Below, one piece after another: positions 26,795 to 35,890 of a stretch of 40,830 bases of DNA. The DNA lies in the NCBI GenBank assembly GCA_002793355.1, contig PFQB01000107.1, positions 1-40,830 on the forward strand. The letters are read 5' to 3'. Position numbers and translations under genes: made by a program. The DNA comes from Candidatus Dojkabacteria bacterium CG_4_10_14_0_2_um_filter_Dojkabacteria_WS6_41_15. Lineage in GTDB: Bacteria; Patescibacteriota; Dojkabacteria; GCA-002793355. Numbering within the stretch: position 1 is the stretch's first letter; each line of letters starts with the position of its first letter. The notes beneath the pieces are model-generated. The model ran no database searches and had not been told where the DNA came from. It was given only the letters and a program-made list of their open reading frames with translations.

Positions 26795-26857
26795 CTAAAT
26801 CGGGATATTATCTGTATCAGTTTTTGTTGGAAAAGGGGAAATACTAGACCTATAGTG

Positions 26858-26887
26858 TTGACTTCGGGGATAATACTCTAGTATAAT
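26858..26887 (+). promoter_or_regulatory. near-consensus sigma70 promoter for the micro-ORF pair
   Basis: TTGACT (26858-26863), 18 nt spacer, TATAAT (26882-26887). Confidence 0.65.
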
Positions 26888-26920
26888 TAGAAATCTCTTA
26901 CGAAAGGAGGTCAACAAAAA

Positions 26921-27010
26921 ATGGCACCAGCTAAAAGCAAGCCAAAGTCCAAAAAGGTCAAGAAGACCGAAAAGCACCGCAAGATCCAGAACAAAAAGAA
27001 AGGTGGTTGA
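26921..27010 (+). CDS. 29-aa extremely basic micro-protein (MAPAKSKPKSKKVKKTEKHRKIQNKKKGG)
   Basis: A strong SD AAAGGAGG (26903-26910) lies 10 nt before the ATG, and the ORF ends in TGA. It is below the length cut-off of the ORF track and sits downstream of a near-consensus promoter. Confidence 0.55.
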   Translation: MAPAKSKPKSKKVKKTEKHRKIQNKKKGG

Positions 27011-27012
27011 CC

Positions 27013-27105
27013 ATGGCCGGAACGAAAAGTTCAAAACGTAAGACCAGGAAGGCCAAGAAGCGCCGAACCCACAGGCCCCAAAAAGGCAATAAGGGCAAGC
27101 GCTAA
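27013..27105 (+). CDS. 30-aa extremely basic micro-protein (MAGTKSSKRKTRKAKKRRTHRPQKGNKGKR)
   Basis: It starts 2 nt after the stop of the first micro-ORF, with AAAGGTGG 6 nt upstream. Composition and layout are similar to the first peptide. Confidence 0.5.
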   Translation: MAGTKSSKRKTRKAKKRRTHRPQKGNKGKR

Positions 27106-27243
27106 CTTGGAGTGATGGGTAAAACCTCACACAATATAGGTAGGGTGCATCCGCATCCCGTGGAGCCGAAAGGTCCTGGAGCAATCGTTGCGATCACTTG
27201 ATCAAAACCCTAATCTCCTCTCTAATTCCACAAAGCACTACCT

Positions 27244-28566
27244 TTATCCCCCAAACAACCTCTCCGAAAACTCCAGCCCCTTCTTAATCAGTCTGATATC
27301 GTAATTTTCGTTAACTCCGTGCATGTTGCAGTCGTCGTTGGCGAGGGAAATCAAAACGGGATCAACACCAAAAACTCGTTTGATATCGATAACAATCGGC
27401 AACGTTGCACCACAGAAGTCGATAAGCACCTTGTCACCGTAAACTTCTTCCAATAAAGCAATTGCCTTTTTGTGCATCGACGAGGTAATGTCAACTTTTA
27501 TCGGTGCATTGTCGCTTTGCACGTCGACAATTTCGGCAGTTGCATAGTCAGGCGTATTTTCGACCAAGTATTGACGAATCATATTTTGCACAGTTTCAAC
27601 TGACTGATTTGCAGCAAGTCGTGTATTCAACTTTATGAACGCTGTTGCAGGCACGATATTCGAGTACCCACTGCCCGTGTAGCCTCCGTTAATTCCCGAC
27701 GGAACAATCATAGTAGTAAAGCCAACAACCTCGCAGAACGAGTTGTTTTTGCCCAAAAACCACTTCTTCACACCAGTCTGCTCTAGAGTCTTCATTTTGA
27801 CGCCATCCATATCTTTACAGAGCTGAAGCTCTTCAACAGTTGGGACTAGGTCCTTGTCATAAAAACCTTTAAGAACTAAGCGGTTGTTGTCGTCGTACAT
27901 TCGCGCGACCAGCTGCGAAGCCACGACCGTCGCGCTTGGAGCAGCACCACCATATAAACCAGAGTGCATGTTGTTTGCAGCAGTTGTCACTTTGACCGTG
28001 AGATTAAAGGTTCCTCTAAACGAGGCGGTAATAACGGGTTTATACGGCATTTCACCATCAGAGATTATGTATTGGTCGGCTTTGAACAATTCTGGGCGTT
28101 CCTCGAACAACTTCGAGATACCACCACCGCCGGTTTCTTCGTCACCTTCGACAACGAACACGATATTCTTAGTAAGTTTGCCTGCCTTGATTAACTCGAT
28201 AATACTCACCAAGTGAATCATAAATTGGCCTTTGTTATCAACAACTCCTCTACCCAACAACTTTCCGTCTTTTTCGGTCAACACAAAAGGATCAGCATCC
28301 CAACCATCTTCCTTGTTTGCGGGCTGCACATCATAATGGCCATAGACAAAAAACGTTTTTTTATCCGCCGAGACGGTGTATTTTGCAATCACAATTGGGT
28401 GACCATAGCCATCAACACGTTCAAATACGAAACCATTGTCGGTAAAATACTTTTTAAGCCATTCAACCGCACCCTCTATGCCAGATGCAAATGCCGGGTC
28501 GGTAGAAATACTTTGCTTAGAAACAAGTTCTGTAACTTGCTTCTTATATTCATCAAAATTATCCAT
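27244..28566 (-). CDS. M20/M25/M40 family metallopeptidase (dipeptidase / acyl-amino acid amidohydrolase type)
   Basis: Contains FFVYGHYDVQP, RGVVDNKGQ and FVVEGDEETGGGG motifs and a dimerisation-domain-sized insert. I preferred the ATG at 28566 (MDNFDEY); the longest ORF starts at TTG 28578. Confidence 0.85.
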   Translation of the reverse strand: MDNFDEYKKQVTELVSKQSISTDPAFASGIEGAVEWLKKYFTDNGFVFERVDGYGHPIVIAKYTVSADKKTFFVYGHYDVQPANKEDGWDADPFVLTEKDGKLLGRGVVDNKGQFMIHLVSIIELIKAGKLTKNIVFVVEGDEETGGGGISKLFEERPELFKADQYIISDGEMPYKPVITASFRGTFNLTVKVTTAANNMHSGLYGGAAPSATVVASQLVARMYDDNNRLVLKGFYDKDLVPTVEELQLCKDMDGVKMKTLEQTGVKKWFLGKNNSFCEVVGFTTMIVPSGINGGYTGSGYSNIVPATAFIKLNTRLAANQSVETVQNMIRQYLVENTPDYATAEIVDVQSDNAPIKVDITSSMHKKAIALLEEVYGDKVLIDFCGATLPIVIDIKRVFGVDPVLISLANDDCNMHGVNENYDIRLIKKGLEFSERLFGG

Positions 28567-28568
28567 CT

Positions 28569-30302
28569 TTATTTGCAATTAATTAAGTACCGTTCAGAAA
28601 TTTTACCATCTTTCACTAACTGAGTGGTAAAGTCATCTAGTCGTTGTGTAGAAATAAATTTATTTAGTGCATACATTGCCTTAAGCCATTCTTGCTTTGC
28701 ATGCAGAAACACCCGTGAAAAATCAACTGCTGGTTCCAGATTCGCCTGAGACAAGTTTGTATAATGTACGCTCTTGTCCCCTATGTCTTTGCCAAAAACG
28801 AAATTGCCACTTTCATCGAAATACAACATATGCGACTTATAACCTGAGCTGTTACCTTTTTCGATGGCAATCAATTTAATAATGAACCCTGCATGTACGA
28901 CCTCACCATTACGTTTAATCATTGATGCTTTTCTTACATGGCCGTGCAAAGGTTGCCCTTGTTGGTAAAAGAGGATCGATGGCACATAATTTTGCACAAC
29001 AATTCCTTGATAATCCACATTGCTTAGAAAACTTTGTAGTTCATCGCACGGCTTACGATGCACATGTTTTCCTCCAGTCGAGCACCAGCTTCCTTCTTTT
29101 ATGGTGACCCACTGCGTAAATCCATCGAATGAAGTCGGATGCGTATCGCGAGAAAACACGATGCTTTTGGGCCTTGCAATTAAAAATCCTTCTTGCTGTT
29201 CTTGTTGCTGCAACAGCTCAAAAAAGGCGGACTTAGCATTAAGCAAACTCGAAAGATACATCTTTTTGTGACTCTCATTTGCGACGTTATATTGCGACTT
29301 GTCAAAATGCTCCCAAAGATACGCGTATTGTTTGAAGTTTTCTGAGGCAGTTTCATGAGTAAGAAACACATTCTCACGCAAATCAATTCCTAACTTGCCG
29401 TTAATAAGTATATGCTTCTTTTCTGGAGTTGCGATTAACGTGGTGTTATTGCCTTCAAAATACACACGCGAGTGTGAACAAGAGTTTTTGACCGGATTTA
29501 GCAACATGCCGTAGATATCTCTATACTGCGTATTGCCATAAGGTGCGACCAGCGCTTTCAAAGGTATTTCGGAAAACAATCCTGTGTTCGCGTGCAAATC
29601 AGAAAGTACCGTAACAGCGATACCTTGTTTCTCTAAAGATTCGGCAATATAGTAACTCATATCAGACTCCCACTCAACGTCGTACGTCGTATAAGTTGGA
29701 CTTGCTACTCTTCCTAGGGTTGAAAGAAACGCCTCCATGTACTCGTATACTCGCATTACCACTTCTTTGGGAAAGAATGATATTCCTTGCCTTTTAACAA
29801 CTATCTCCTTAAATTTAGTTACCTTAAGAAGTTTGTAGCGTTTCCAGAGCTGGTTATAACACCACACAATGCCGTATTCACTAGCAAAAAGAATCTTCAG
29901 CCGACTAACGTAGTCTTTTGTATACAAAGACGTCAATAAAGGGCCCTTTATGCGCAGCTTGATACAGAATTCATCAACTACACGGTCTTCTGTTGCACCA
30001 ATTTGCTGTAAAGAGTTGATAATCACCGCTAAAAGCTCGAGTATTTCTTTTTCTGCAAGACTAGGAAAAGCAGCTTTTATGGCTTCCTTTACCGCGGACT
30101 TTGCTGAAATCGAAAGGTGAGTGTCATCAACTGCTATTTGATCCAAAATTGTTCTGAATACGAATGGAAAGCCACCAGCAGATAACGCGTTTGGATCAAT
30201 GAAACCTGTATCGTTACCTTGCGGATCCCATAAATACTCTATTTCGGCATGAGAAATAAAGCACTCCTGTAAGCTTCTGAGCTTTTTTTCAATGCTGTCC
30301 AT
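28569..30302 (-). CDS. large orphan protein (577 aa), C-terminal half possibly ATP-grasp-like
   Basis: No firm motif. The segment FLIARPKSIVFSRD...YQGIVVQNYVPS...HGHVRKASMIKRNGEVVHAGFIIKL resembles the strand pattern of ATP-grasp ligases. This is a weak, by-eye call. Confidence 0.3.
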   Translation of the reverse strand: MDSIEKKLRSLQECFISHAEIEYLWDPQGNDTGFIDPNALSAGGFPFVFRTILDQIAVDDTHLSISAKSAVKEAIKAAFPSLAEKEILELLAVIINSLQQIGATEDRVVDEFCIKLRIKGPLLTSLYTKDYVSRLKILFASEYGIVWCYNQLWKRYKLLKVTKFKEIVVKRQGISFFPKEVVMRVYEYMEAFLSTLGRVASPTYTTYDVEWESDMSYYIAESLEKQGIAVTVLSDLHANTGLFSEIPLKALVAPYGNTQYRDIYGMLLNPVKNSCSHSRVYFEGNNTTLIATPEKKHILINGKLGIDLRENVFLTHETASENFKQYAYLWEHFDKSQYNVANESHKKMYLSSLLNAKSAFFELLQQQEQQEGFLIARPKSIVFSRDTHPTSFDGFTQWVTIKEGSWCSTGGKHVHRKPCDELQSFLSNVDYQGIVVQNYVPSILFYQQGQPLHGHVRKASMIKRNGEVVHAGFIIKLIAIEKGNSSGYKSHMLYFDESGNFVFGKDIGDKSVHYTNLSQANLEPAVDFSRVFLHAKQEWLKAMYALNKFISTQRLDDFTTQLVKDGKISERYLINCK

Positions 30303-31152
30303 AAACGCGCTGTGCTGTTAATTTAACTATGGCATTCCAGTCACTTTGAATAAGTTCTTTTTTTAAATATGTTGCCACGTTTATTGATTCTTTATAGGTT
30401 CCTTTAATAGTACATACAGGCCAATCGGAGCCAAGCATAATTCGGTCTACACCGAATTTTTCTATAATAGTGTCGATACATGGTCTAAAGTCTTCTTTCT
30501 CGACAGTATTCTTAGATGATTCCGTCAAAAGCCCCGAGATTTTGCAGTAAACATTGGGATAACACGCCACCTTTGTGATATCTTTTCTCCACAACTCAAA
30601 GTCGCGACTTATTCCGTTTATCGCCGGTTTTCCCATATGGTCAAGCACGTAGTTTGGGGATTCATGCTCACTCAATTCTTGCAGCAAAGTATGGAACTGT
30701 CCAAATTGGTGTCTTTTAATCAGTACTTCATAGCTGAACTGATGCTTATTCAGTAATTTCATCGCTTGGATAAATTTAGGTTGGCACATAAAGTTTTCAT
30801 TCAACTCGTCTTGGACAAGATGCCTGAAAGCTACCAATTTTGTTTTGGAACTCGTTTGTTTGTACGCTATAAGCTCTTGTTCAACAAGGTCACCAAGTAC
30901 GTCTACCCAACCAACAACGCCTAAGACATCGTGGTTATTCTCTGCAATTGAACACAGAAACTGGGTTTCCTCTTTCAACTGCCTCGCTTGCACAAGAACG
31001 ACTTGTTCTACATCAGCTGATTCCTTTGCAACTAATAAATCGTCAAATAAAAAGTCTTGCGCCAGGGCATCTATATCTGGTGTTATCCACGGAAAATCCT
31101 TCCGATTATATCGCCACAAATGAACATGCGTATCAATAATGGTGCTATTCAT
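30289..31152 (-). CDS. Amidohydro_2 (PF04909) family metal-dependent hydrolase, lactonase/decarboxylase type
   Basis: Contains IIDTHVHLW, a DHMGKP-like motif and MLGSDWPVC motifs, as in L-fuconolactonase-type amidohydrolases. Confidence 0.8.
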   Translation of the reverse strand: MNSTIIDTHVHLWRYNRKDFPWITPDIDALAQDFLFDDLLVAKESADVEQVVLVQARQLKEETQFLCSIAENNHDVLGVVGWVDVLGDLVEQELIAYKQTSSKTKLVAFRHLVQDELNENFMCQPKFIQAMKLLNKHQFSYEVLIKRHQFGQFHTLLQELSEHESPNYVLDHMGKPAINGISRDFELWRKDITKVACYPNVYCKISGLLTESSKNTVEKEDFRPCIDTIIEKFGVDRIMLGSDWPVCTIKGTYKESINVATYLKKELIQSDWNAIVKLTAQRVYGQH

Positions 31153-31837
31153 GGTTACTCATTGACAATTCATGTGCCAACATGTACCTAAAGTTTCTCA
31201 TAAACGAAAGCAGTGGCTCTGCTTGTAGCTTTGCCGTTTTTGTGCTTAAAATATCGGCACAACTAATTTGATAACTAAGCTGTTCCATCAGGTCATGAGA
31301 ATTGTTCTCTCGCTTGCTTTTGCTTATCGTGTCATACCGTGCATTCTCAATTGTGGGCAAAATCTTGGCGACAGAGAATCCCAACTCTTTTTCCGGTCTT
31401 GCCGCTAATCCCCTCCAGATACCAACGGCGCCAAGTAAATCCAAAGTATCTGCATCAACCAAAACATCTAGAAGTTGAGATGGTCGAGGTGCTAATTTTT
31501 TGTGGTTGTGCCATGAAATAGCGTAGACAACTTCGGTGATTTCTTCTAGAGTCATCTCTTTACCTGCGATATCAAACAAAAAGCTCTGTGCCATCTGCGC
31601 GCCAACTTCGCCATGTGCCGGCCTTTCGCACAAGCCTAGTCCGATGTCATGCAACAAACCGGCAATTTCATAGAGTGATGGCTTTTCCAGACCTTCGCGT
31701 TCGGCAATACACATTGCAATATTCCCAACGCGAAATGCATGAGAATAATCGTGGGAAGTCTCTCTTCCCATGTTCTCTTTTACAAAATTTCGTATTCTTC
31801 TTTTTGTTACTGCTTTCATATTAATTTTTAGAGTCAT
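31145..31837 (-). CDS. HD domain metal-dependent phosphohydrolase
   Basis: Contains HDYSHAFRV....IA and AGLLHDIG (the H...HD...D pattern). Confidence 0.8.
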   Translation of the reverse strand: MTLKINMKAVTKRRIRNFVKENMGRETSHDYSHAFRVGNIAMCIAEREGLEKPSLYEIAGLLHDIGLGLCERPAHGEVGAQMAQSFLFDIAGKEMTLEEITEVVYAISWHNHKKLAPRPSQLLDVLVDADTLDLLGAVGIWRGLAARPEKELGFSVAKILPTIENARYDTISKSKRENNSHDLMEQLSYQISCADILSTKTAKLQAEPLLSFMRNFRYMLAHELSMSNHE

Positions 31838-32609
31838 CTAAGTGTGTATAGCCACCGTCGACAAAGAGTAGTTGTCCTGTCGTATGGCTACTCTTTTGCG
31901 ACAATAAAAACAATACATAATCCGCTATTTCTTCAGGCGTTGTTAGCCGTGTGCCAAGATTTATTTTCTTCAGAATCGCCGGTAGTCTACGTTCTCCCTC
32001 TTGTGTTTGCAACCAACTTGCATACTGCGGGGTATTAACCTCGGCTGGGATGACACAGTTAACGTCGACATTAAAAGGCGCAAGGTCAACTGCCCACTCT
32101 CGGGTTAATGCGTTAATAGCCCCCTTTGCAGCAGCATAACCTGACGTTCCTCCTTGTCCTGTAACTGCCACCTTTGACGATATATTGATGATAGAACCTT
32201 GCGCTTGTTTTATTCTTGCTACCAGCCCTTGTGTCATTTGAAAATAGTGAACTAAATTCTTGTGTAGTGAAGACATAAATGAAGCTACGTCTGAGTTCAG
32301 GCCAATACCATCATTAGCGCCAGCATTATTTACTAAACCGTAAATATCTGTATGATCCAAGTTCAACTCGCTCAGAACACGCTGTGTATCCAGCGGATCT
32401 GAAAGATCGCACAGGTAAGTTTCAATCATTTTTCTTTTAAATAGCGAACTATGCGCTTGAGCCAAAGATTGCAACCCTACTCTGCTTTTATCGATAACAA
32501 CAGGAATTGCACCTTCTTGAACAAGCCCATTAACTATTGCGGCACCGATGCCACTTGCACCTCCTGTTACAACAATTGTTTTATTTTTTAGATCAAGGTC
32601 CATATTCAT
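31821..32609 (-). CDS. short-chain dehydrogenase/reductase (classical SDR)
   Basis: Contains the cofactor motif VVTGGASGIGAAI, NNAG, and the catalytic S...YAAAKGA triad. Confidence 0.9.
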   Translation of the reverse strand: MNMDLDLKNKTIVVTGGASGIGAAIVNGLVQEGAIPVVIDKSRVGLQSLAQAHSSLFKRKMIETYLCDLSDPLDTQRVLSELNLDHTDIYGLVNNAGANDGIGLNSDVASFMSSLHKNLVHYFQMTQGLVARIKQAQGSIINISSKVAVTGQGGTSGYAAAKGAINALTREWAVDLAPFNVDVNCVIPAEVNTPQYASWLQTQEGERRLPAILKKINLGTRLTTPEEIADYVLFLLSQKSSHTTGQLLFVDGGYTHLDDSKN

Positions 32610-33223
32610 GGTACTAATTTACTCATAACTTGCTCTGCAACCTTTTTTGCTGGCTGCATAGTACTAACAAAGTCAATGGGAATACCGGTGCATTCAGCGA
32701 GAATGTGTCGCGTTAATTGCGTCTGGAAGTTAACAAAGTTGCTCTTGCACGAATCTGAATTTAGTGCTAATTCGTTTTTTTGCAGTTTCCTGATTTTTAT
32801 TACTCTTGAGTAAGCAACCTCTGGTGCTAGATTAAGAAATATAACCTTATCCGGTTTTCGAAGCGTTCTCCATATAGAAAGTACTCGAGCATCGCCCTTA
32901 TTTACCTGCTCTTTTGCAAGAAATTTATAGTAATAGGAATCACACAAGACATTCGATACTGACAATGCTTTTTCTACAACATCTTGCAAATACGCAACAA
33001 ACAAGTGATAGTACGCACTTCTAAACTCGGAACTAAAGGTTGTAAATTCGGGTATTGCTTCATCGCGCACCGTTTTAGCTATACTGTTTACTGCAGTATA
33101 ATTACTCGGCACGTGTTCCTGGCTGTAAGAAACAATTTTCCATCCTGCTTTGTTAATAAGTGATAGAGTTGTGGACTTTCCAACACCATCTCCACCTAGC
33201 AGTACAAACAATTTATACTTCAT
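32606..33223 (-). CDS. thymidylate kinase-like P-loop (d)NMP/nucleoside kinase
   Basis: Contains the P-loop LLGGDGVGKSTT, CDSYYYKF (compare the DRY region of Tmk) and PDKVIFLNLAPEVAYSRV. I preferred the ATG at 33223; the longest ORF starts at GTG 33235. Confidence 0.6.
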   Translation of the reverse strand: MKYKLFVLLGGDGVGKSTTLSLINKAGWKIVSYSQEHVPSNYTAVNSIAKTVRDEAIPEFTTFSSEFRSAYYHLFVAYLQDVVEKALSVSNVLCDSYYYKFLAKEQVNKGDARVLSIWRTLRKPDKVIFLNLAPEVAYSRVIKIRKLQKNELALNSDSCKSNFVNFQTQLTRHILAECTGIPIDFVSTMQPAKKVAEQVMSKLVP

Positions 33224-33860
33224 ACAGCTGCCCACTTACTTTATACGCTCCAGATGCAGAATCGAATAACACCCTTGTGTAGAGTGCCTTGTCTTTCTTG
33301 AATGGCCGTTTTTCATAATTTCTGAACTGGACATTAATACTGCTTAACGCATTCATTTTCCTATCGATAAGAGATTCATTAATAATGTGCGAAACATCAA
33401 CAAGAAGCTGTTCAACAGTGGAGCAGTCGTCCGCAAGGTCAACAGCATACTTTCTCCAGTGTCCAAAATACATATACCCATTTTTATTAATATTTTCGTC
33501 TTTAAACATAGGGCACATTGAGCGAAGTCCTTTAACGTACGCAGGAGTTAACAAACTGGTAATTCCAACATTTGCTTCTTGATATAGAAAAACATTCGGT
33601 GACTTTTGCATGACACGTTTAGGATTTCCTAGTAAAAAGTACATTTTTGTGAACGCAGCCTTCCAAAGTTGCTTCTCTTCTTCACCAAGGCGTTTATGCA
33701 ATTGAAGAAGAGAGCCTACATAGGTCTGGAAGTTAAATTCCGACATAACCGCAACCACTGCCATTTCTGGATTTGTTTCCTCGGATAAGACACCTGACGC
33801 TGCAGCGATTCGCACCTGCATAAGTTTTTCTAATTGTTTTTGTCTTGTATCGTTGTTCAT
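33213..33860 (-). CDS. orphan protein (215 aa), no recognisable motif
   Basis: An ORF embedded in the coupled operon. It has an ATGA overlap with the upstream gene and overlaps the downstream kinase gene. Confidence 0.55.
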   Translation of the reverse strand: MNNDTRQKQLEKLMQVRIAAASGVLSEETNPEMAVVAVMSEFNFQTYVGSLLQLHKRLGEEEKQLWKAAFTKMYFLLGNPKRVMQKSPNVFLYQEANVGITSLLTPAYVKGLRSMCPMFKDENINKNGYMYFGHWRKYAVDLADDCSTVEQLLVDVSHIINESLIDRKMNALSSINVQFRNYEKRPFKKDKALYTRVLFDSASGAYKVSGQLYEV

Positions 33861-35095
33861 AGAAATTTAACATTTGAATTAATCCGCGCTTTCGGTTTAA
33901 GTGTTCGATACCACACTTGCATGCTTGAAATCAATTCGGGGTTTTTTGACTGTTCTTCCAGGCTAGCAAGCTCAGTTACATCGCACGTACCATACTCTTC
34001 CTGAATTCGCACTGCTTTGTTTATACTTTTTTGCAGCTCATCGTAAGAAAAATTCAGAACTACTTTTTGGGAATTATAGACAAGTAAATACAAACGCAAC
34101 CCCAATGAAATGATTTCTGGTGTGTACCGAGGTTCGAATTGCCTCACAATATCCGTAAGCGTGTGCCCTTCCCATCCTCCTTTACGTGCGGACGCGACCT
34201 TACCTTGTATTGCAACTCTTGCTGTCGGCCTGCATATTACTGTACAACCTAATTTTTCCAGCACTCGACCAATTGTAAGAAAGTCAGAAGTACATTCAGG
34301 GTCAAATACCAATTCCATCATGTCTCCAGGATTGACTACCGGCACTAGTCGTCTGAGGGCAATAAACATATAGTTATACCCAAACACATTGGCAGAAGAT
34401 ATTTTTCTTAGCCGTAACCCGTAATTAGAAAAATCCAAATATATGTTTCCGTCGCTGGATCTTGCGTCTAGCACAACGTCAAGTTTTTTTAGTTCACGCA
34501 AAAGCTCTTCGTGCGTAATCAAAAACTTCTCCGGGGTGTACAATCCGGGGTCGTACATTCCTAATAACTTGTACTGACTCTTCCATTCTGGAAGAATGTA
34601 CTTATAATATTCGTGCCCAGCAAGAGACGACTCCAATTCTTGTCTTCTCGTTTGCATTCTTTCTTCGCTAATGCTGTAATTTCGGGAAGACATCTCAATG
34701 TATGCCTTCCCAACCGAAATTCCATCAGACAAGTCGCTGTTTTCTCTACCTCGAAGATATTCCCCAAGTTTAATAACCTGATTATCAACATCAAAAGCTA
34801 ATCGGTTATACAGATAATCCACATCAACATTGCATGCTTTACGCATTTTATACAAGAAGTCTACATACAATAAATGCCTAATATGGCTGGGATTCAACGG
34901 TTTCGTGGGATCAATTTGAACGGGGAAGAGAAAATATTTCATTTTTTGTTGAGTTAAATAATAAAAAACTTCCCTTTCGGGAGGTTTAACATTTTTATTT
35001 AGAGGTTTAGTTAATTCCCGAAAGTTGCTTTGTGGACGAAATAAATTGGAAGGGTTGCGAAAAGTTTGGTCCAACGCATAGGGGAAAGATGACAC
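33857..35095 (-). CDS. truncated class I aminoacyl-tRNA synthetase-like protein (ArgRS catalytic-core-like)
   Basis: KYFLFPVQIDPTKPLNPSHIRHLLYVDFLYKMRKACNVDVDYLY...FDVDNQVIKL parallels the ArgRS region (SxNPtgPlHvGHxR..iGD.l.R.l...G..V.reyY.ND.G.Qi). QGKVASARKGGWEGHTLTDIV parallels G-KMStRkG..v.L.DLl, and GLRLYLLVYNSQKVVLNFSYDEL parallels the RY.ll......i.F pattern. The N-terminal add-on domain and most of the DALR anticodon-binding domain are absent. It starts at GTG 35095, with an alternative ATG at 34942. Confidence 0.45.
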   Translation of the reverse strand: MSSFPYALDQTFRNPSNLFRPQSNFRELTKPLNKNVKPPEREVFYYLTQQKMKYFLFPVQIDPTKPLNPSHIRHLLYVDFLYKMRKACNVDVDYLYNRLAFDVDNQVIKLGEYLRGRENSDLSDGISVGKAYIEMSSRNYSISEERMQTRRQELESSLAGHEYYKYILPEWKSQYKLLGMYDPGLYTPEKFLITHEELLRELKKLDVVLDARSSDGNIYLDFSNYGLRLRKISSANVFGYNYMFIALRRLVPVVNPGDMMELVFDPECTSDFLTIGRVLEKLGCTVICRPTARVAIQGKVASARKGGWEGHTLTDIVRQFEPRYTPEIISLGLRLYLLVYNSQKVVLNFSYDELQKSINKAVRIQEEYGTCDVTELASLEEQSKNPELISSMQVWYRTLKPKARINSNVKFL

Positions 35096-35179
35096 CCGAC
35101 GCCTTGTACGGCCGTGTTAAAAAGCAATGCAATTGCTTCTAATAAATTTTTGGACACGGTTTGCGTCATGTTGAACAGA

Positions 35180-35208
35180 ATTTTACAGGAGTTGTATACG
35201 GGTGTCAA
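35180..35208 (-). promoter_or_regulatory. near-consensus sigma70 promoter of the eight-gene operon
   Basis: On the minus strand: TTGACA (35203-35208), 17 nt spacer, TAAAAT (35180-35185). The predicted leader to the GTG at 35095 is about 78 nt. Confidence 0.6.
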
Positions 35209-35311: not shown

Positions 35312-35890
35312 TCACAGTTTCACTACCCACTCGACCACCTTTGCCAATACGGTAGTTTTCGAATCAGGTACGTATTGCTCAACACTAACCAAACCGTTGC
35401 GGGCGACTAGCACCACCGCGTGTTCGGAAAGGTCGCCCAAAGCCAGCGTGCAAATAAGGATTCCGCGAGGCAATAAATTTCCTGTCGCTACTCGTAGCTT
35501 CGAATCCGCACCCAAACGAACACCGAATTTCTCTACACCATTCTCATTGTCGTATATTTTCGAACCGCTTTCGGTAGCAGATAGAATACTTATCAGCTCT
35601 GAACTTGTTGCTGGAACTACATCAATAACAGGCACAAATCGCGAGGACAAATATTCCGTACTTGCGTCTTTAAAACTGGGAAACGACGAAGCGGCACCGA
35701 AGAACTTACTGACATCAAGATCTAGCGCGTCAGCTAAAAGCAATATCTTTTGCAACGAAGAAGATCTTCCTCGTTCATACCTGCTAATCATCTCCCATGT
35801 TACGCCAACTTTCTTTGCTAGTTCGGACTGAGACAACCTTTTCTTTTGTCGCTGTTCACGAATAGTTCTTCCAATTTCAATATCTGTCAT
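35312..35890 (-). CDS. XRE-family HTH regulator with C-terminal LexA/CI (S24)-like domain
   Basis: The N-terminal HTH reads IGRTIREQRQKKRLSQSELAKKVGVTWEMISRYERGRSS. The C-terminal beta-rich region has GADS at the position of the S24 nucleophile, but no obvious catalytic Lys. Confidence 0.75.
   Translation of the reverse strand: MTDIEIGRTIREQRQKKRLSQSELAKKVGVTWEMISRYERGRSSSLQKILLLADALDLDVSKFFGAASSFPSFKDASTEYLSSRFVPVIDVVPATSSELISILSATESGSKIYDNENGVEKFGVRLGADSKLRVATGNLLPRGILICTLALGDLSEHAVVLVARNGLVSVEQYVPDSKTTVLAKVVEWVVKL

What the first reader, a model, noticed from the sequence alone, without database searches (positions are those of the whole stretch)
27244..35208. Eight translationally coupled genes mixing an aaRS-like core, an ATP-grasp-like orphan, a Tmk-like kinase, SDR, HD, Amidohydro_2 and M20 peptidase: candidate undescribed small-molecule pathway
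**Seen in the sequence.**
- Eight minus-strand genes run without a break from 35095 to 27244.
- Every junction is an overlap or a gap of at most 2 nt. There are ATGA overlaps at 33857-33860 and 32606-32609. Overlaps of 8-23 nt occur at 33213, 31145 and 30289. The junctions at 31821 and 28569 are a 17-nt/10-nt overlap or a 1-2 nt gap, depending on the start chosen.
- A single near-consensus promoter (TTGACA, 17 nt, TAAAAT at 35180-35208) sits upstream, and an XRE/CI-like regulator lies immediately before it.

**By motif.** The products are:
- a truncated ArgRS-like class I aaRS core;
- a 215-aa orphan protein;
- a thymidylate-kinase-like P-loop kinase;
- a classical SDR;
- an HD phosphohydrolase;
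- a PF04909 amidohydrolase;
- a 577-aa orphan with an ATP-grasp-like C-terminal half;
- an M20 peptidase.

**Inference.**
- There may be two ATP-dependent ligation chemistries (aminoacyl-adenylate and acyl-phosphate).
- The kinase/phosphatase pair is of the kind that acts on nucleotide-like substrates.
- The SDR plus Amidohydro_2 pair is the arrangement used as aldose dehydrogenase plus lactonase in non-phosphorylative L-fucose-type pathways.
- The amide-bond hydrolase completes a toolkit for making, or salvaging, an aminoacylated or peptidyl nucleotide or sugar-acid conjugate.
- I cannot map this gene set onto any pathway I know. It is also unexpected in what otherwise looks like a streamlined genome.
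Basis: partly seen in the sequence, partly recalled or inferred. Interest (0 to 1): 0.8.

Follow-up and report, generated by a model that had tools for sequence, protein, structure and literature searches.

The report
Attenuator-led mosaic enzyme operon in CPR bacterium
The eight tightly packed genes are real and include two very rare enzyme families, but related genomes show they are separable gene cassettes, not one eight-step pathway, placed between a previously unnoticed leader-peptide/terminator switch and a conserved dipeptidase gene.

Summary
In detail: eight minus-strand genes, all seven junctions overlapping, and one strong promoter. Most motif-based identifications also hold.
- ORF1 is a truncated ArgRS-derived class I core.
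- ORF2 is DUF6182.
- ORF3 is a divergent Tmk-like P-loop protein.
- ORF4 and ORF6 resemble the Burkholderia L-fucose dehydrogenase/L-fucono-1,5-lactonase pair.
- ORF5 is a YpgQ/YedJ-type HD hydrolase.
- ORF7 has an ATP-grasp fold and belongs to a family of only 22 representatives.
- ORF8 is a CNDP2/DUG1-like M20 dipeptidase.

Two corrections change the picture.
1. ORF1 probably starts at ATG 34942. Upstream lie a conserved, apparently leaderless 52-codon ORF (35169-35011) and an intrinsic terminator (34987-34966). The 5' arm of that terminator can pair with the end of the small ORF, which is leader-peptide attenuator architecture. It recurs in five lineages ahead of different first genes.
2. 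The operon is a mosaic. Cassette A (ORF1-3) occurs in about 20 actinomycete genomes, usually with a GH3 ligase. Cassette B (ORF4-7) or ORF7+M20 occurs alone in other CPR contigs. Close relatives carry A+M20 or B+M20 behind the same leader.

The product is unknown. My best guess is co-regulated modules that make and hydrolyse amide conjugates. No publication was found.

The parts
35312..35890 (-). XRE-family HTH regulator (192 aa) upstream of the operon, on the same strand
   Evidence: Pfam HTH_3 E 1e-12. Orthologues at 64% and 53% identity occupy the same position in L004 and L002. In those loci 1-2 extra genes separate the regulator from the promoter.
35180..35208 (-). Sigma-70-type promoter TTGACA-17-TAAAAT
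   Evidence: 11 of 12 consensus matches. The -35 box (TTGACAC) and -10 box (TAMAAT) are conserved in four aligned leaders. L033 has TTGACTC and TACAAT.
35011..35169 (-). 52-codon leader ORF (MTQTVSKNLLEAIALLFNTAVQGVGCHLSPMRWTKLFATLPIYFVHKATFGN). Its ATG lies about 10 nt after the -10 box, so the mRNA is apparently leaderless.
   Evidence: An ORF of 50-52 codons with the same start, frame and stop position occurs in L004, L033, L007 and L002, and a 26-codon version in L009. Shuffled sequences stay open only 7-14% of the time per lineage (product 9e-5). Only R/C/H-W-x-K (nucleotides YRUUGG) and the ORF end are conserved. No Pfam match.
35015..35024 (-). Proposed antiterminator strand (CUUUCGGGAA) formed by the last codons of the leader ORF
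   Evidence: It pairs with the terminator's 5' arm and loop in the minimum-free-energy fold of the free leader in the window (-17 kcal/mol), L004, L002 and L009. 82% of cells are paired across five leaders, with a conserved 6-bp GC core. Covariation is not significant on its own.
34955..34987 (-). Intrinsic terminator: hairpin AAACCUCCC-GAAA-GGGAAGUUU (34987-34966) followed by a U-run (34965-34955), ending about 12 nt before the ORF1 ATG
   Evidence: Hairpin noted. 95.6% of cells are paired across five leaders, with two compensated pairs (12 of 500 shuffles reach this). It forms in all leaders when the ORF end is masked (-8.5 to -17.9 kcal/mol). No Rfam family matches.
33857..34942 (-). ORF1 (361 aa from the revised ATG): stand-alone class I aaRS catalytic core derived from ArgRS, with an unknown substrate
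   Evidence: AF2 model has pLDDT above 90 over residues 52-383. Foldseek best hits are ArgRS 2zue_A at E 4e-10, then CysRS, MetRS and MshC. The family profile hits P. horikoshii ArgRS at E 1e-3, aligning PTKPL..SH to PTKPLHMGH and SsRhGGW to SGRKGTW. No Pfam hit. 31 family members, mostly actinomycetes.
33213..33860 (-). ORF2 (215 aa): DUF6182, the obligate neighbour of ORF1-family genes
   Evidence: PF19680 E 2e-12. Close to the ORF1 homologue in every locus examined: directly adjacent in most, separated by one gene in L007, about 5 kb away in L027 and across a gap on the opposite strand in L024. Invariant residues W66, T71, G78, P80, H158, E162 and R196. No solved relative.
32606..33235 (-). 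ORF3 (205-209 aa): divergent thymidylate-kinase-like P-loop protein
   Evidence: Pfam Thymidylate_kin 29.6 bits. TIGR00041 scores 37 bits, well below its cut-off of 83. Closest PDB entry is 2plr at E 5e-3. Homologous to the 204-aa and 241-aa genes of the actinomycete cassettes (E about 1e-16).
31821..32609 (-). ORF4 (262 aa): SDR, L-fucose-dehydrogenase type
   Evidence: NCBIfam FucosDh scores 335.7 bits, above its cut-off of 300. PDB 4gkb/4gvx at E 9e-72; 4gvx is B. multivorans L-fucose dehydrogenase BmulJ_04919 (PMC11293516).
31145..31837 (-). ORF5 (224-230 aa): HD phosphohydrolase of the YpgQ/YedJ type
   Evidence: Pfam HD E 2e-12. PDB matches are 3djb, 5dqv (B. subtilis YpgQ, a dNTP pyrophosphohydrolase; PMC8177086) and 3gw7 (YedJ).
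30289..31152 (-). ORF6 (287 aa): Amidohydro_2, L-fucono-1,5-lactonase-like
   Evidence: PF04909 E 2e-31. NCBIfam FuconLaconase scores 238 bits, below its cut-off of 400. The only PDB relative is 4dlf/4dlm/4dnm/4do7 at E 2e-42.
28569..30302 (-). ORF7 (577 aa): novel family with an N-terminal helical domain and a C-terminal ATP-grasp-fold half
   Evidence: AF2 pLDDT 91. The 47 best Foldseek PDB hits are all ATP-grasp enzymes (Ddl, VanA, RimK, synapsin, TTL, MdnB, GspS) at E 3e-3 and weaker, probability up to 1.0, but with low TM-scores. No Pfam, NCBIfam or PDB sequence hit. Only 22 representatives among 1.84 billion proteins. hhalign against DdlB and RimK is negative.
27244..28578 (-). ORF8 (440-444 aa): M20 metallopeptidase of the CNDP2/carnosinase/DUG1 dipeptidase clade, the constant 3' gene of these operons
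   Evidence: Pfam M20 plus M20_dimer. PDB matches CNDP2, CNDP1, Sso-CP2 and DUG1 at E 1e-36 to 1e-40. 75-94% identical in L002, L004, L011 and L033, and adjacent to every ORF7 homologue.

Best explanation
This is a chromosomal operon of a Dojkabacteria-like (CPR/Patescibacteria) bacterium. It is built from interchangeable enzyme cassettes inserted between a conserved regulatory leader and a conserved M20 dipeptidase gene.

Transcription control. Transcription starts at the promoter (35208-35180). The apparently leaderless 52-codon ORF is translated.
- If the ribosome runs to the stop codon, it covers the CGGGA(A/G) strand. The GC hairpin and U-tract then terminate transcription just before ORF1.
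- If the ribosome pauses further upstream, probably at the conserved R/C/H-W-x-K segment, that strand pairs with the terminator's 5' arm. RNA polymerase then reads through into eight translationally coupled genes.

Cassette A (ORF1-3). It comprises an ArgRS-derived ligase core that has lost its tRNA-recognition domains, the first His of HIGH, and (by alignment plus my recollection of ArgRS residues) the Glu and Asn that bind arginine; its obligate DUF6182 partner; and a Tmk-like P-loop protein. The same trio forms a conserved cassette in actinomycetes, usually with a GH3 acyl-acid amido synthetase.

Cassette B (ORF4-7). It oxidises an L-fucose-configured aldose to its aldonate (SDR plus lactonase). 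It also carries a nucleotide-type HD hydrolase and a new ATP-grasp-fold enzyme, which I infer ligates a carboxylate to an amine.

ORF8. This CNDP2/DUG1-like hydrolase is the shared amide-bond hydrolase.

Shown: the anatomy, fold and family assignments, the separability of the cassettes, and the conserved leader ORF plus terminator.
Inferred: the attenuation logic, all substrates, and the idea that the modules make and cleave amide (aminoacyl or aldonoyl) conjugates.
For: Anatomy.

Protein identities.
- ORF1.
- ORF7.
- ORF4 and ORF6.
- ORF5.
- ORF8.
- ORF2 and ORF3.

Modularity.
- L004 has SDR-HD-lactonase-ORF7-M20 without ORF1-3.
- L033 has ORF1-3 followed directly by M20.
- L033 and L004 share only the leader (88.6% nt) and the M20 gene (83.7% nt, 91% aa).
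- L008 and L009 have ORF7+M20 only. L010 has M20-SDR-lactonase-ORF7.
- 20 actinomycete loci have ORF1-like plus DUF6182, with GH3 in about 18 and the Tmk-like gene in about 16. None has ORF4-8 homologues.
- The low-GC ORF1 sequences form a single clade.

Leader.
- The promoter, small ORF, stop codon and hairpin align in five loci upstream of three different first genes.
- ORF maintenance has a shuffle probability product of 9e-5.
- The terminator helix has two compensated pairs.
- The antiterminator is the minimum-free-energy fold in three of four leaders.
- L009 reproduces the switch with different sequence, upstream of ORF7.
- The peptide's C-terminus is not conserved (FGN, LGS, GG, CLQ) whereas the RNA complementarity is.
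Against: - No substrate or product is known for ORF1, ORF2, ORF3, ORF5, ORF7 or ORF8.
- ORF7's ATP-grasp assignment rests on a predicted fold with low TM-scores (0.12-0.23 by query). No sequence-profile match supports it. Its catalytic residues were judged only by eye.
- Antiterminator covariation is not significant with five sequences (195 of 500 shuffles reach it). In L007 the terminator, not the antiterminator, is the minimum-free-energy fold.
- L008 and L010 show no recognisable leader.
- The L033 and L007 contigs are short. 'Missing' cassettes could lie beyond their ends, or elsewhere in the L004 genome.
- In the window and in L002, A and B are fused with overlapping stop and start codons, which is also what a single pathway would look like.
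- A ligase and a hydrolase for the same amide bond would form a futile cycle unless they are separated in time or substrate.
Confidence: 0.5

Rival explanations
1. One reading: all eight enzymes form one linear pathway that makes or salvages a single aminoacylated or peptidyl nucleotide or sugar-acid conjugate.
For: All eight genes are translationally coupled behind one promoter. The same A+B+M20 order is kept in the Dojkabacteria genome CP129470. The enzyme chemistries could be chained on paper: two ligases, a kinase, a phosphohydrolase, a dehydrogenase/lactonase pair and an amidase.
Against: Cassette A occurs without B or M20 in 20 actinomycete genomes. B or ORF7+M20 occurs without A in L004, L008, L009 and L010. 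The close relatives L033 and L004 carry A+M20 and B+M20 respectively, behind near-identical leaders.
Confidence: 0.15
2. The 52-aa ORF encodes a substrate: a scaffold, carrier or precursor peptide. The ligases (ArgRS-like ORF1, ATP-grasp ORF7) attach a building block to it, the other enzymes tailor that block, and the M20 peptidase releases the product. This would resemble LysW/LysX/LysK amino-group carrier systems or pearlin scaffold peptides. The hairpin would be a partial terminator that sets the peptide-to-enzyme ratio.
For: The small ORF and the M20 gene are the two constant elements, while the cassettes between them vary and each contains one ATP-dependent ligase. The ORF is kept open in five lineages. 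ORF7's fold hits include RimK, TTL and the RiPP macrocyclase MdnB. ORF8 resembles the Sso-CP2 carboxypeptidase as well as dipeptidases. From my own knowledge, the LysW system uses a ~54-aa carrier, an ATP-grasp ligase, a kinase, a dehydrogenase and an M20 hydrolase.
Against: Peptide identity is only 22-35%, with equal substitution at all codon positions. Peptide length varies (26 against 50-52 aa) and the C-terminus is not conserved (FGN, LGS, GG, CLQ). What is conserved at the ORF end is RNA complementarity to the terminator arm. The R/C/H variation keeps the nucleotide pattern YRU. Actinomycete A-cassettes and L008/L010 have no such ORF. The peptide is not acidic or zinc-finger-like, unlike LysW (my own knowledge).
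Confidence: 0.15
3. The genes are unrelated scavenging enzymes of a streamlined symbiont (sugar oxidation, nucleotide turnover, dipeptide hydrolysis). They share a transcript and a starvation-type control with no chemical link between them.
For: Free recombination of cassettes behind one leader. ORF8 is far better conserved (75-94%) than its neighbours (29-79%), as a housekeeping dipeptidase would be. Gene overlaps are common in this genome. The region is ordinary chromosome with conserved synteny.
Against: ORF7 is always next to M20 across lineages where ORF7 is only 28-34% identical. ORF1, DUF6182 and the Tmk-like gene stay together from CPR to actinomycetes. ORF1, ORF2 and ORF7 are extremely rare families rather than housekeeping ones. 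No fuconate dehydratase or downstream L-fucose catabolic genes are nearby, so the SDR/lactonase pair does not form a catabolic route here.
Confidence: 0.17
4. The cluster is an anti-phage defence or toxin system.
For: An XRE regulator sits next door. There are weak PADLOC hits of ORF3 to VakA and PDC-M51B (E 2e-4 to 6e-4). A restriction-modification system lies nearby in L002.
Against: None of the eight proteins has a significant defence-family hit. The location is chromosomal and syntenic. The enzyme families are metabolic.
Confidence: 0.03

Closest known systems
Burkholderia multivorans L-fucose dehydrogenase (BmulJ_04919, PDB 4GVX) and L-fucono-1,5-lactonase (BmulJ_04915) of the non-phosphorylative L-fucose pathway
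   Same: ORF4 passes the NCBIfam equivalog cut-off for L-fucose dehydrogenase. The Burkholderia enzyme is also its best solved relative (E 9e-72). ORF6's only solved relative is the partner Amidohydro_2 protein (E 2e-42). The two genes travel together in four CPR loci.
   Different: ORF6 scores below the lactonase family cut-off (238 against 400 bits). No fuconate dehydratase, 2-keto-3-deoxyfuconate dehydrogenase or FAH-type hydrolase is nearby. The pair is instead joined to an ATP-grasp-fold protein and an M20 peptidase, so the aldonate is probably a building block or end product, not a catabolic intermediate.
Arginyl-tRNA synthetase, and stand-alone class I aaRS paralogues such as MshC (Cys:GlcN-Ins ligase) and GluQRS
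   Same: Rossmann-fold class I core, with ArgRS as best match by fold (E 4e-10) and by profile (E 1e-3). The PTKPL…H motif and the S-x-R-x-G-x-W motif (the ArgRS counterpart of KMSKS) are kept. Like MshC and GluQRS, it is a trimmed paralogue found in genomes that also need a canonical synthetase.
   Different: About 360 aa against 550-630 aa. There are no Add-1 or anticodon-binding domains and no Pfam tRNA-synt_1d or DALR hit. The first His of HIGH is replaced. The positions that bind arginine in ArgRS, Glu and Asn just before HIGH (residue roles from my own knowledge), are hydrophobic/Pro and Asp/Ala. It is always paired with DUF6182. The substrate is unknown.
ATP-grasp carboxylate-amine ligases (Ddl/VanA, RimK/LysX, glutathionylspermidine synthetase, microviridin MdnB)
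   Same: The predicted C-terminal half of ORF7 superposes only on this superfamily. By eye, it has an invariant Lys followed by a Gly-rich loop (K402, S408, G410, G411) and a Q-x-Y hinge (Q437).
   Different: No sequence-level similarity to any ATP-grasp family. It has a ~200-residue helical N-terminal domain with an invariant GxIDPNxLSAGGxP motif. The family has only 22 representatives, apparently all in CPR-like contigs.
CNDP2, carnosinase and DUG1 (M20A metallodipeptidases)
   Same: These are the best solved relatives of ORF8 (E 1e-36 to 1e-40), with the same catalytic-plus-dimerisation domain architecture. CNDP2 also interconverts alpha-hydroxy-acyl amino acids (N-lactoyl amino acids) with their parts (abstracts of PMC12975387 and PMC11885389). 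That makes an aldonoyl-amino-acid substrate chemically plausible.
   Different: ORF8 scores below every NCBIfam cut-off. Its substrate is unknown. Here it is genetically locked to an ATP-grasp-fold gene and placed under a leader-peptide switch.
Leader-peptide transcription attenuators (trpL type) and metabolite-sensing arrest peptides (TnaC, SpeFL)
   Same: A short ORF at the 5' end of the mRNA, an intrinsic terminator just before the first structural gene, and an alternative pairing between the ORF end and the terminator's 5' arm. Conservation is limited to a short peptide or codon motif.
   Different: There is no run of regulatory codons; a single Trp codon is the only invariant sense codon besides the start. 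The ORF is long (50-52 codons) and the mRNA is apparently leaderless. The same leader heads operons with different gene content. No Rfam family matches. The signal sensed is unknown.
Plant GH3 acyl-acid amido synthetases with ILR1-type M20 amidohydrolases (the hormone-amino-acid conjugate cycle)
   Same: The actinomycete version of cassette A carries a GH3 ligase. The CPR version sits with an M20 amidohydrolase. This is the same ligase-and-hydrolase logic for amide conjugates (the plant system is cited from my own knowledge).
   Different: This is an analogy only. GH3 and M20 are never in the same locus here, ORF8 belongs to the CNDP2 clade rather than the ILR1 clade, and no acyl substrate is known.

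Membership tests
Class I aminoacyl-tRNA synthetase (ArgRS) | Rossmann-fold catalytic core of class I type | tested here: met
   AF2 model. Foldseek top 50 are all class I aaRS or MshC, with ArgRS first at E 4e-10.
Class I aminoacyl-tRNA synthetase (ArgRS) | Intact HIGH signature and the ArgRS equivalent of KMSKS (MSTRxG) | tested here: inconclusive
   The profile alignment to 2zue puts T/N-x-S-H on H-M-G-H, so the first His is lost and the last is kept. SsRhGGW aligns on SGRKGTW, with R304 and G306 invariant.
Class I aminoacyl-tRNA synthetase (ArgRS) | Anticodon-binding (DALR) and N-terminal Add-1 domains for tRNA-Arg recognition | tested here: not met
   361 aa against 550-630 aa. No tRNA-synt_1d, DALR_1 or Arg_tRNA_synt_N Pfam hit. 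Only about 30 helical residues follow the core, then a disordered tail.
Class I aminoacyl-tRNA synthetase (ArgRS) | Arginine-binding Glu and Asn immediately before HIGH (residue roles recalled from the yeast and P. horikoshii ArgRS literature) | tested here: not met
   In the alignment these positions are Ala/Phe and Ala/Asp in the family. The residue roles are from memory, not from a tool.
Class I aminoacyl-tRNA synthetase (ArgRS) | Charges tRNA-Arg, and is essential and universal | not testable with these tools
   Indirect evidence only. The gene is absent from the syntenic operon of L004. The family is confined to about 20 actinomycete species plus a few CPR contigs.
ATP-grasp ligases | ATP-grasp fold | tested here: met
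   The model has pLDDT 91. The 47 best PDB hits are all ATP-grasp enzymes, with probability up to 1.0. However E is only 3e-3 at best and TM-scores are low because only part of the protein aligns.
ATP-grasp ligases | Sequence membership in a described ATP-grasp family | tested here: not met
   No Pfam, NCBIfam or PADLOC hit. The profile against PDB sequences finds nothing. hhalign against DdlB and RimK gives probability below 1%. The exhaustive profile search finds only the family itself.
ATP-grasp ligases | Catalytic Lys, Gly-rich loop and Mg-binding acidic/Asn residues | tested here: inconclusive
   Invariant K402, S408, G410, G411, Q437, R457 and N484 fit the expected order by eye. No residue-level superposition was available.
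Non-phosphorylative L-fucose pathway | L-fucose 1-dehydrogenase (SDR) | tested here: met
   NF052481 scores 335.7 bits, above its cut-off of 300. 4gvx at E 9e-72.
Non-phosphorylative L-fucose pathway | L-fucono-1,5-lactonase | tested here: inconclusive
   NF052480 scores 238 bits, below its cut-off of 400. The best and only solved relative is 4dlf at E 2e-42.
Non-phosphorylative L-fucose pathway | Fuconate dehydratase, KDF dehydrogenase and a diketo-acid hydrolase in the same locus | tested here: not met
   No enolase-superfamily or FAH-family protein among the window ORFs or in the called genes of L002, L004 and L010.
M20A dipeptidases (CNDP2/DUG1) | M20 catalytic plus dimerisation domains, with closest relatives in the CNDP/DUG1 clade | tested here: met
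   NCBIfam subfamily models PRK09104 and PRK07907 score just below their cut-offs.
Thymidylate kinase | Score above the family threshold and the DR(Y/H) catalytic motif | tested here: not met
   TIGR00041 scores 37 bits against a cut-off of 83. The Walker A motif GGDGVGKST is present, but the motif after strand 3 reads D-S-Y rather than D-R-Y (read from the sequence; the motif role is from my own knowledge).
Leader-peptide transcription attenuator | Short translated ORF between the promoter and the first structural gene | tested here: met
   The ORF is conserved in frame, start and stop in five lineages. Translation itself was not tested.
Leader-peptide transcription attenuator | Intrinsic terminator immediately upstream of the first structural gene | tested here: met
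Leader-peptide transcription attenuator | Mutually exclusive antiterminator whose formation depends on ribosome position | tested here: inconclusive
   The pairing is present and is the minimum-free-energy fold in four of five lineages. One compensated pair, not statistically significant.
Leader-peptide transcription attenuator | Run of codons for the regulating amino acid, or a defined arrest motif with a known ligand | tested here: not met
   There is a single invariant Trp codon within R/C/H-W-x-K and no tandem codons.
Scaffold or carrier-peptide biosynthesis (LysW/AmCP, pearlins, RiPPs) | Small peptide with a conserved modification site, such as a conserved C-terminus or core | tested here: not met
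   The C-termini are FGN, LGS, GG and CLQ, and identity is 22-35%.
Scaffold or carrier-peptide biosynthesis (LysW/AmCP, pearlins, RiPPs) | Peptide-dependent ligase and a releasing peptidase encoded alongside | not testable with these tools
   Candidate ligases (ORF1, ORF7) and a peptidase (ORF8) are present, but no activity data exist.

The most novel reading that the evidence does not exclude
The conserved 52-aa ORF would be both the regulatory leader and a reusable scaffold peptide. Interchangeable cassettes would each bring their own ATP-dependent ligase: an ArgRS-derived, tRNA-independent ligase with DUF6182, or a new ATP-grasp enzyme. Each ligase would build a different small molecule on the scaffold, for example an aldonoyl- or aminoacyl-conjugate. 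The invariant CNDP2-like M20 peptidase would then cut the product off. That would be a plug-and-play, pearlin/LysW-like small-molecule factory in ultra-small CPR bacteria, part of whose toolkit (ORF1, DUF6182, Tmk-like) is shared with actinomycetes.
Probability: 0.1. Interest if true: 0.9.

Novelty: new variant of a known kind. Interest (0 to 1): 0.62.

Why it matters
1. It defines a stand-alone ArgRS-derived enzyme family that is always paired with DUF6182 and usually with a Tmk-like P-loop protein. In actinomycetes these come with a GH3 ligase, a methyltransferase and a flavoprotein. I found no publication on it. aaRS paralogues such as MshC have repeatedly turned out to make unusual amide or ester bonds, so this is a concrete target for natural-product and enzyme discovery.

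2. It uncovers a new, extremely rare ATP-grasp-fold family that is locked to a CNDP2-like dipeptidase in CPR bacteria, organisms thought to have almost no biosynthetic capacity.

3. It reveals a candidate leader-peptide attenuator in Patescibacteria, whose gene regulation is essentially unexplored. It also gives a natural example of cassette swapping between a fixed leader and a fixed terminal gene.

4. A three-gene cassette shared between CPR bacteria and actinomycetes bears on gene exchange between episymbionts and potential hosts.

None of these points is yet backed by biochemistry.

Tried and rejected
- ORF7 as a divergent GH3/ANL adenylating enzyme. I suspected this because it has the same length as GH3 and GH3 sits beside the Streptomyces cassette. 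Rejected: the fold search returned only ATP-grasp enzymes.
- Defence system. PADLOC gave no significant hit.
- T-box, riboswitch or other known RNA in the leader or downstream of ORF8. Rfam found nothing apart from a sub-threshold CRISPR-repeat hit caused by the hairpin.
- Sequence-level links for ORF1, ORF7 and DUF6182 to solved structures. ORF7 and DUF6182 gave nothing. ORF1's profile gave ArgRS.
- Residue-level check of ATP-grasp motifs by hhalign against E. coli DdlB and RimK. No alignment was obtained.
- Pattern scan of genomes with the 31-sequence ORF1 alignment failed because it was too diverse. The 4-sequence alignment worked.
- The metagenome scan for ORF7 relatives yielded one near-identical locus.
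- Literature searches for DUF6182, ArgRS-like biosynthetic enzymes and bacterial GH3 clusters found nothing relevant.

Full report
OBSERVATION. The eight minus-strand ORFs are present exactly as listed. All seven internal junctions are overlaps of 4, 23, 4, 17, 8, 14 and 10 nt, and three of them become 1-2-nt gaps or shorter overlaps with the next in-frame ATG. Elsewhere in the window only 6 of 18 same-strand junctions are this tight, so an unbroken run of seven is not expected by chance. The promoter TTGACA-17-TAAAAT at 35208-35180 is the best minus-strand match in the region, although promoter-like sites are not enriched overall. The upstream gene is an XRE-family HTH protein. The window is ordinary chromosome of a CPR-type organism: L21, L27, TruB, MutS, RNase J, TatD and one tRNA-Leu. 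It is syntenic, flanks included, with a complete Candidatus Dojkabacteria genome, CP129470. GC content across the cluster (0.40-0.41) is not anomalous.

CORRECTED 5' END. ORF1 homologues start at the residue matching M52, and residues 1-50 of the 412-aa reading are modelled as disordered. The 370 nt between the HTH gene and ATG 34942 align end to end with the DNA upstream of the first operon gene in four other loci. The alignment shows, in order:
- the promoter;
- about 10 nt later, an ATG opening a 50-52-codon ORF (window 35169-35011), which an independent gene caller had annotated as a 52-aa gene in L004;
- a stop codon at the aligned position;
- about 27 nt of spacer;
- a GC hairpin with a GAAA loop and a U-run (34987-34955);
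- about 12-20 nt later, the ATG of the first enzyme gene.
ORF1 is therefore 33857-34942 (361 aa).

WHAT THE PRODUCTS ARE.
- ORF1. It has no Pfam or NCBIfam hit. Its model (pLDDT above 90 over residues 52-383) matches class I synthetases, with ArgRS first (2zue_A E 4e-10), followed by CysRS, MetRS and MshC. A profile of 31 family members finds P. horikoshii ArgRS by sequence (E 1e-3). That alignment places the family's PTKPLt-sH on PTKPLHMGH and SsRhGGW on SGRKGTW. The first His of HIGH is lost. The positions that I recall as binding arginine (Glu and Asn before HIGH) are not conserved. There is no room for the anticodon-binding or Add-1 domains. It is thus an ArgRS-derived stand-alone core, not a tRNA synthetase.
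- ORF2. It is DUF6182, with invariant W, T, G, P, H, E and R residues and no solved relative.
- ORF3. It is a P-loop protein only distantly like thymidylate kinase.
- ORF4. It passes the NCBIfam equivalog cut-off for L-fucose dehydrogenase. Its closest solved relative is the B. multivorans enzyme (PMC11293516).
- ORF6. It is closest to that enzyme's partner lactonase but scores below the family cut-off.
- ORF5. It is a YpgQ/YedJ-type HD protein. YpgQ is a (d)NTP pyrophosphohydrolase (PMC8177086). A relative, PenF, is a nucleoside monophosphatase in a nucleoside-antibiotic cluster (PMC11592144).
- ORF7. It has no sequence relative outside its own tiny family: 12 clusters by word search and 22 representatives among 1.84 billion proteins, with nothing in the twilight zone. 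Its confident model (pLDDT 91) matches only ATP-grasp enzymes over its C-terminal half. TM-scores are low, and hhalign against DdlB and RimK fails, so this is a fold-level assignment only.
- ORF8. It belongs to the CNDP2/carnosinase/DUG1 clade of M20 dipeptidases.

THE OPERON IS A MOSAIC.

Cassette A (ORF1-ORF2-ORF3).
- The ORF1 family is found mostly in Streptomyces, Micromonospora, Saccharothrix, Actinosynnema and their relatives.
- A scan of 185,579 species genomes found 21 loci: 20 in Actinomycetota and one in Dojkabacteria.
- In the actinomycete loci ORF1-like and DUF6182 always occur together. GH3 acyl-acid amido synthetase accompanies them in about 18 of 20 loci, the Tmk-like gene (30% identical to ORF3) in about 16, an LCM-type methyltransferase in about 11, and often a FAD oxidoreductase.
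- None of these loci has ORF4-8 homologues.
- The low-GC (CPR-type) ORF1 sequences form one clade beside the high-GC ones in a midpoint-rooted NJ tree. That points to one ancient split or transfer, direction unresolved.

Cassette B and the M20 gene.
- ORF7 is adjacent to an M20 orthologue in every context.
- The content varies: ORF7+M20 alone (L008, L009), M20-SDR-lactonase-ORF7 (L010), or SDR-HD-lactonase-ORF7-M20 (L004).

The decisive pair.
- L004 carries B+M20. L033 carries A+M20.
- Their leaders are 88.6% identical in nucleotides, and their leader peptides match at 48 of 52 residues.
- Their M20 genes are 83.7% identical in nucleotides and 91% in amino acids.
- They share nothing in between.

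Another variant. L007 puts a PEP-mutase-like gene, an ORF1 homologue, a methyltransferase, DUF6182, an aminotransferase and an APH-like protein behind the same leader.

The window and CP129470 therefore hold a fusion of two units that live apart elsewhere. ORF8 is by far the most conserved gene, at 75-94% identity against 29-79% for the others.

THE LEADER.
- Coding signal. The small ORF stays open in four diverged lineages. Shuffled versions stay open only 7-14% of the time each, a product of 9e-5. The peptide itself is only 22-35% identical, with substitutions spread equally over the codon positions. The one close pair (L004 and L033) differs at 3, 0 and 6 sites in codon positions 1, 2 and 3.
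- What is conserved. The start; an R/C/H-W-x-K segment whose variable first residue keeps the nucleotide pattern YRU before UGG; and the last codons, CGGGA(G/A).
- Alternative pairing. Those last codons are complementary to the terminator's 5' arm and loop. The free leader folds into this antiterminator as its minimum-free-energy structure in the window (-17 kcal/mol), L004 and L002. When the ORF end is masked, as a terminating ribosome would do, the terminator forms in all leaders (-8.5 to -16 kcal/mol).
- Statistics. The terminator helix is 95.6% paired with two compensated pairs (12 of 500 shuffles reach this). The antiterminator is 82% paired with a conserved GC core and one compensated pair, which is not significant with five sequences.
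- Independent support. L009 comes from a distant lineage (ORF7 29% identical). It has a -10 box 11 nt before an ATG, a 26-codon ORF containing S-Y-R-W-…-K, GGGAGGG near its end, a CCCUCCG/CGGAGG hairpin with a U-run, and then the ORF7 ATG. Its minimum-free-energy fold again pairs the ORF end with the terminator's 5' arm. Its peptide ends …CLQ, so the C-terminus is not conserved whereas the RNA complementarity is.
- Negatives. No Rfam or Pfam family matches. L008 and L010 show no recognisable leader.

MECHANISM (BEST ESTIMATE).

Shown:
- one promoter, a conserved small ORF, a conserved terminator, and eight overlapping genes;
- the family and fold assignments above;
- the separability of the cassettes.

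Inferred:
- Translation-dependent attenuation. A ribosome reaching the stop codon masks the antiterminator, so the operon is OFF. A ribosome pausing near the Trp codon leaves it free, so the operon is ON. The signal sensed is unknown.
- Cassette B turns an L-fucose-configured aldose into its aldonate. The ATP-grasp-fold ORF7 activates a carboxylate and joins it to an amine.
- ORF8, whose mammalian relative CNDP2 handles alpha-hydroxy-acyl amino acids (abstracts listed), hydrolyses or equilibrates such an amide.
- Cassette A uses the ArgRS-derived core to adenylate a carboxylate and transfer it to a non-tRNA acceptor, with help from DUF6182 and a P-loop phosphotransferase.

I give about 0.5 to this composite picture, 0.15 to a single eight-step pathway, 0.15 to the small ORF being a scaffold or precursor peptide, 0.17 to unrelated co-transcribed scavenging enzymes, and 0.03 to a defence system.

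COMPARISON WITH WHAT IS KNOWN, AND NOVELTY. Each recognisable enzyme belongs to a known superfamily, and the leader follows a known regulatory principle. The following are not described as far as I could find:
- the ORF1/DUF6182/Tmk-like cassette and its GH3-containing actinomycete form;
- the ORF7 family and its fixed partnership with a CNDP2-like peptidase;
- this particular leader;
- the cassette-swapping arrangement.
I rate it a new variant of known kinds, with moderate to high interest, limited by the complete lack of functional data.

LIMITS.
- Structure prediction was capped at two, so DUF6182 was not modelled.
- ORF7's active site could not be checked at residue level.
- The L033 and L007 contigs are short.
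- Only five to six leaders are available.
- The roles of the ArgRS residues, the LysW and pearlin systems and the GH3/ILR1 analogy are cited from my own knowledge.

Noticed in passing
L002 2160-3657; L004 6594-7415; L007 2-748; L033 1-861 (absent from the window): A fast-evolving, probably helical protein (226-286 aa, no Pfam hit) sits immediately upstream of the leader promoter in four of five lineages, in two copies in L002. Pairwise similarity is marginal (best E 0.005). All copies share three short motifs: x-LFP, (G/A/K)-E-Y-x-x-(L/M), and P-G-A-(L/V)-Y-x-Y-A. The function is unknown. The window has only the HTH gene at this position.
   Followed up: partly
L013-L031 (e.g. L021 5263-11835); L001 and L005 10001-14245: Actinomycetes carry a conserved cassette: Tmk-like, GH3, LCM-family methyltransferase, a ~475-aa FAD oxidoreductase, ArgRS-like, DUF6182. 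A shorter form is ArgRS-like, DUF6182, Tmk-like, GH3. In S. kanamyceticus and Streptomyces sp. NPDC087300 it lies next to an NRPS with type III PKS and enoyl-CoA-hydratase genes. No literature was found.
   Followed up: partly
L007 1036-6476: Behind the same leader, this metagenomic contig encodes a PEP-mutase-family protein, an ORF1 homologue (41% identical), a methyltransferase, DUF6182, an aminotransferase and an APH-like kinase. This may be a phosphonate-type variant of cassette A.
   Followed up: no
L002 7735-9172: In the Dojkabacteria genome a 66-aa fragment resembling the N-terminus of the Amidohydro_2 gene is followed by a 409-aa beta-lactamase-family gene, inserted between the HD and Amidohydro_2 genes. 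It looks like an insertion that duplicated the 5' end of the lactonase gene.
   Followed up: no
window 27137-27243 (within the 449-bp gap 26795-27243 downstream of ORF8): The first ~107 nt after the M20 stop codon are 80% identical to the equivalent region of L004 (13112-13219). The gap is GC-richer than its surroundings. No Rfam hit, and the 129-aa ORF there has no homologue. It may be a conserved 3' UTR, terminator or small RNA.
   Followed up: partly
window 33213-33860 (ORF2); alignment A4: The most conserved DUF6182 motif (W-x-x-x-F-T-R-T-V-F-L-x-G-x-P) matches a 20-residue stretch of mitoribosomal protein mL65/MRPS30 (WYQSFTKTVFLSGLP) at E 0.03 in a profile search of PDB sequences. This may be chance.
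   Followed up: no
window 35167-35180; L002, L004, L007, L009, L033 leaders: In all lineages the leader ORF's ATG lies only 10-11 nt downstream of the -10 hexamer, which implies an essentially leaderless mRNA. That may say something about translation initiation in these CPR bacteria.
   Followed up: no
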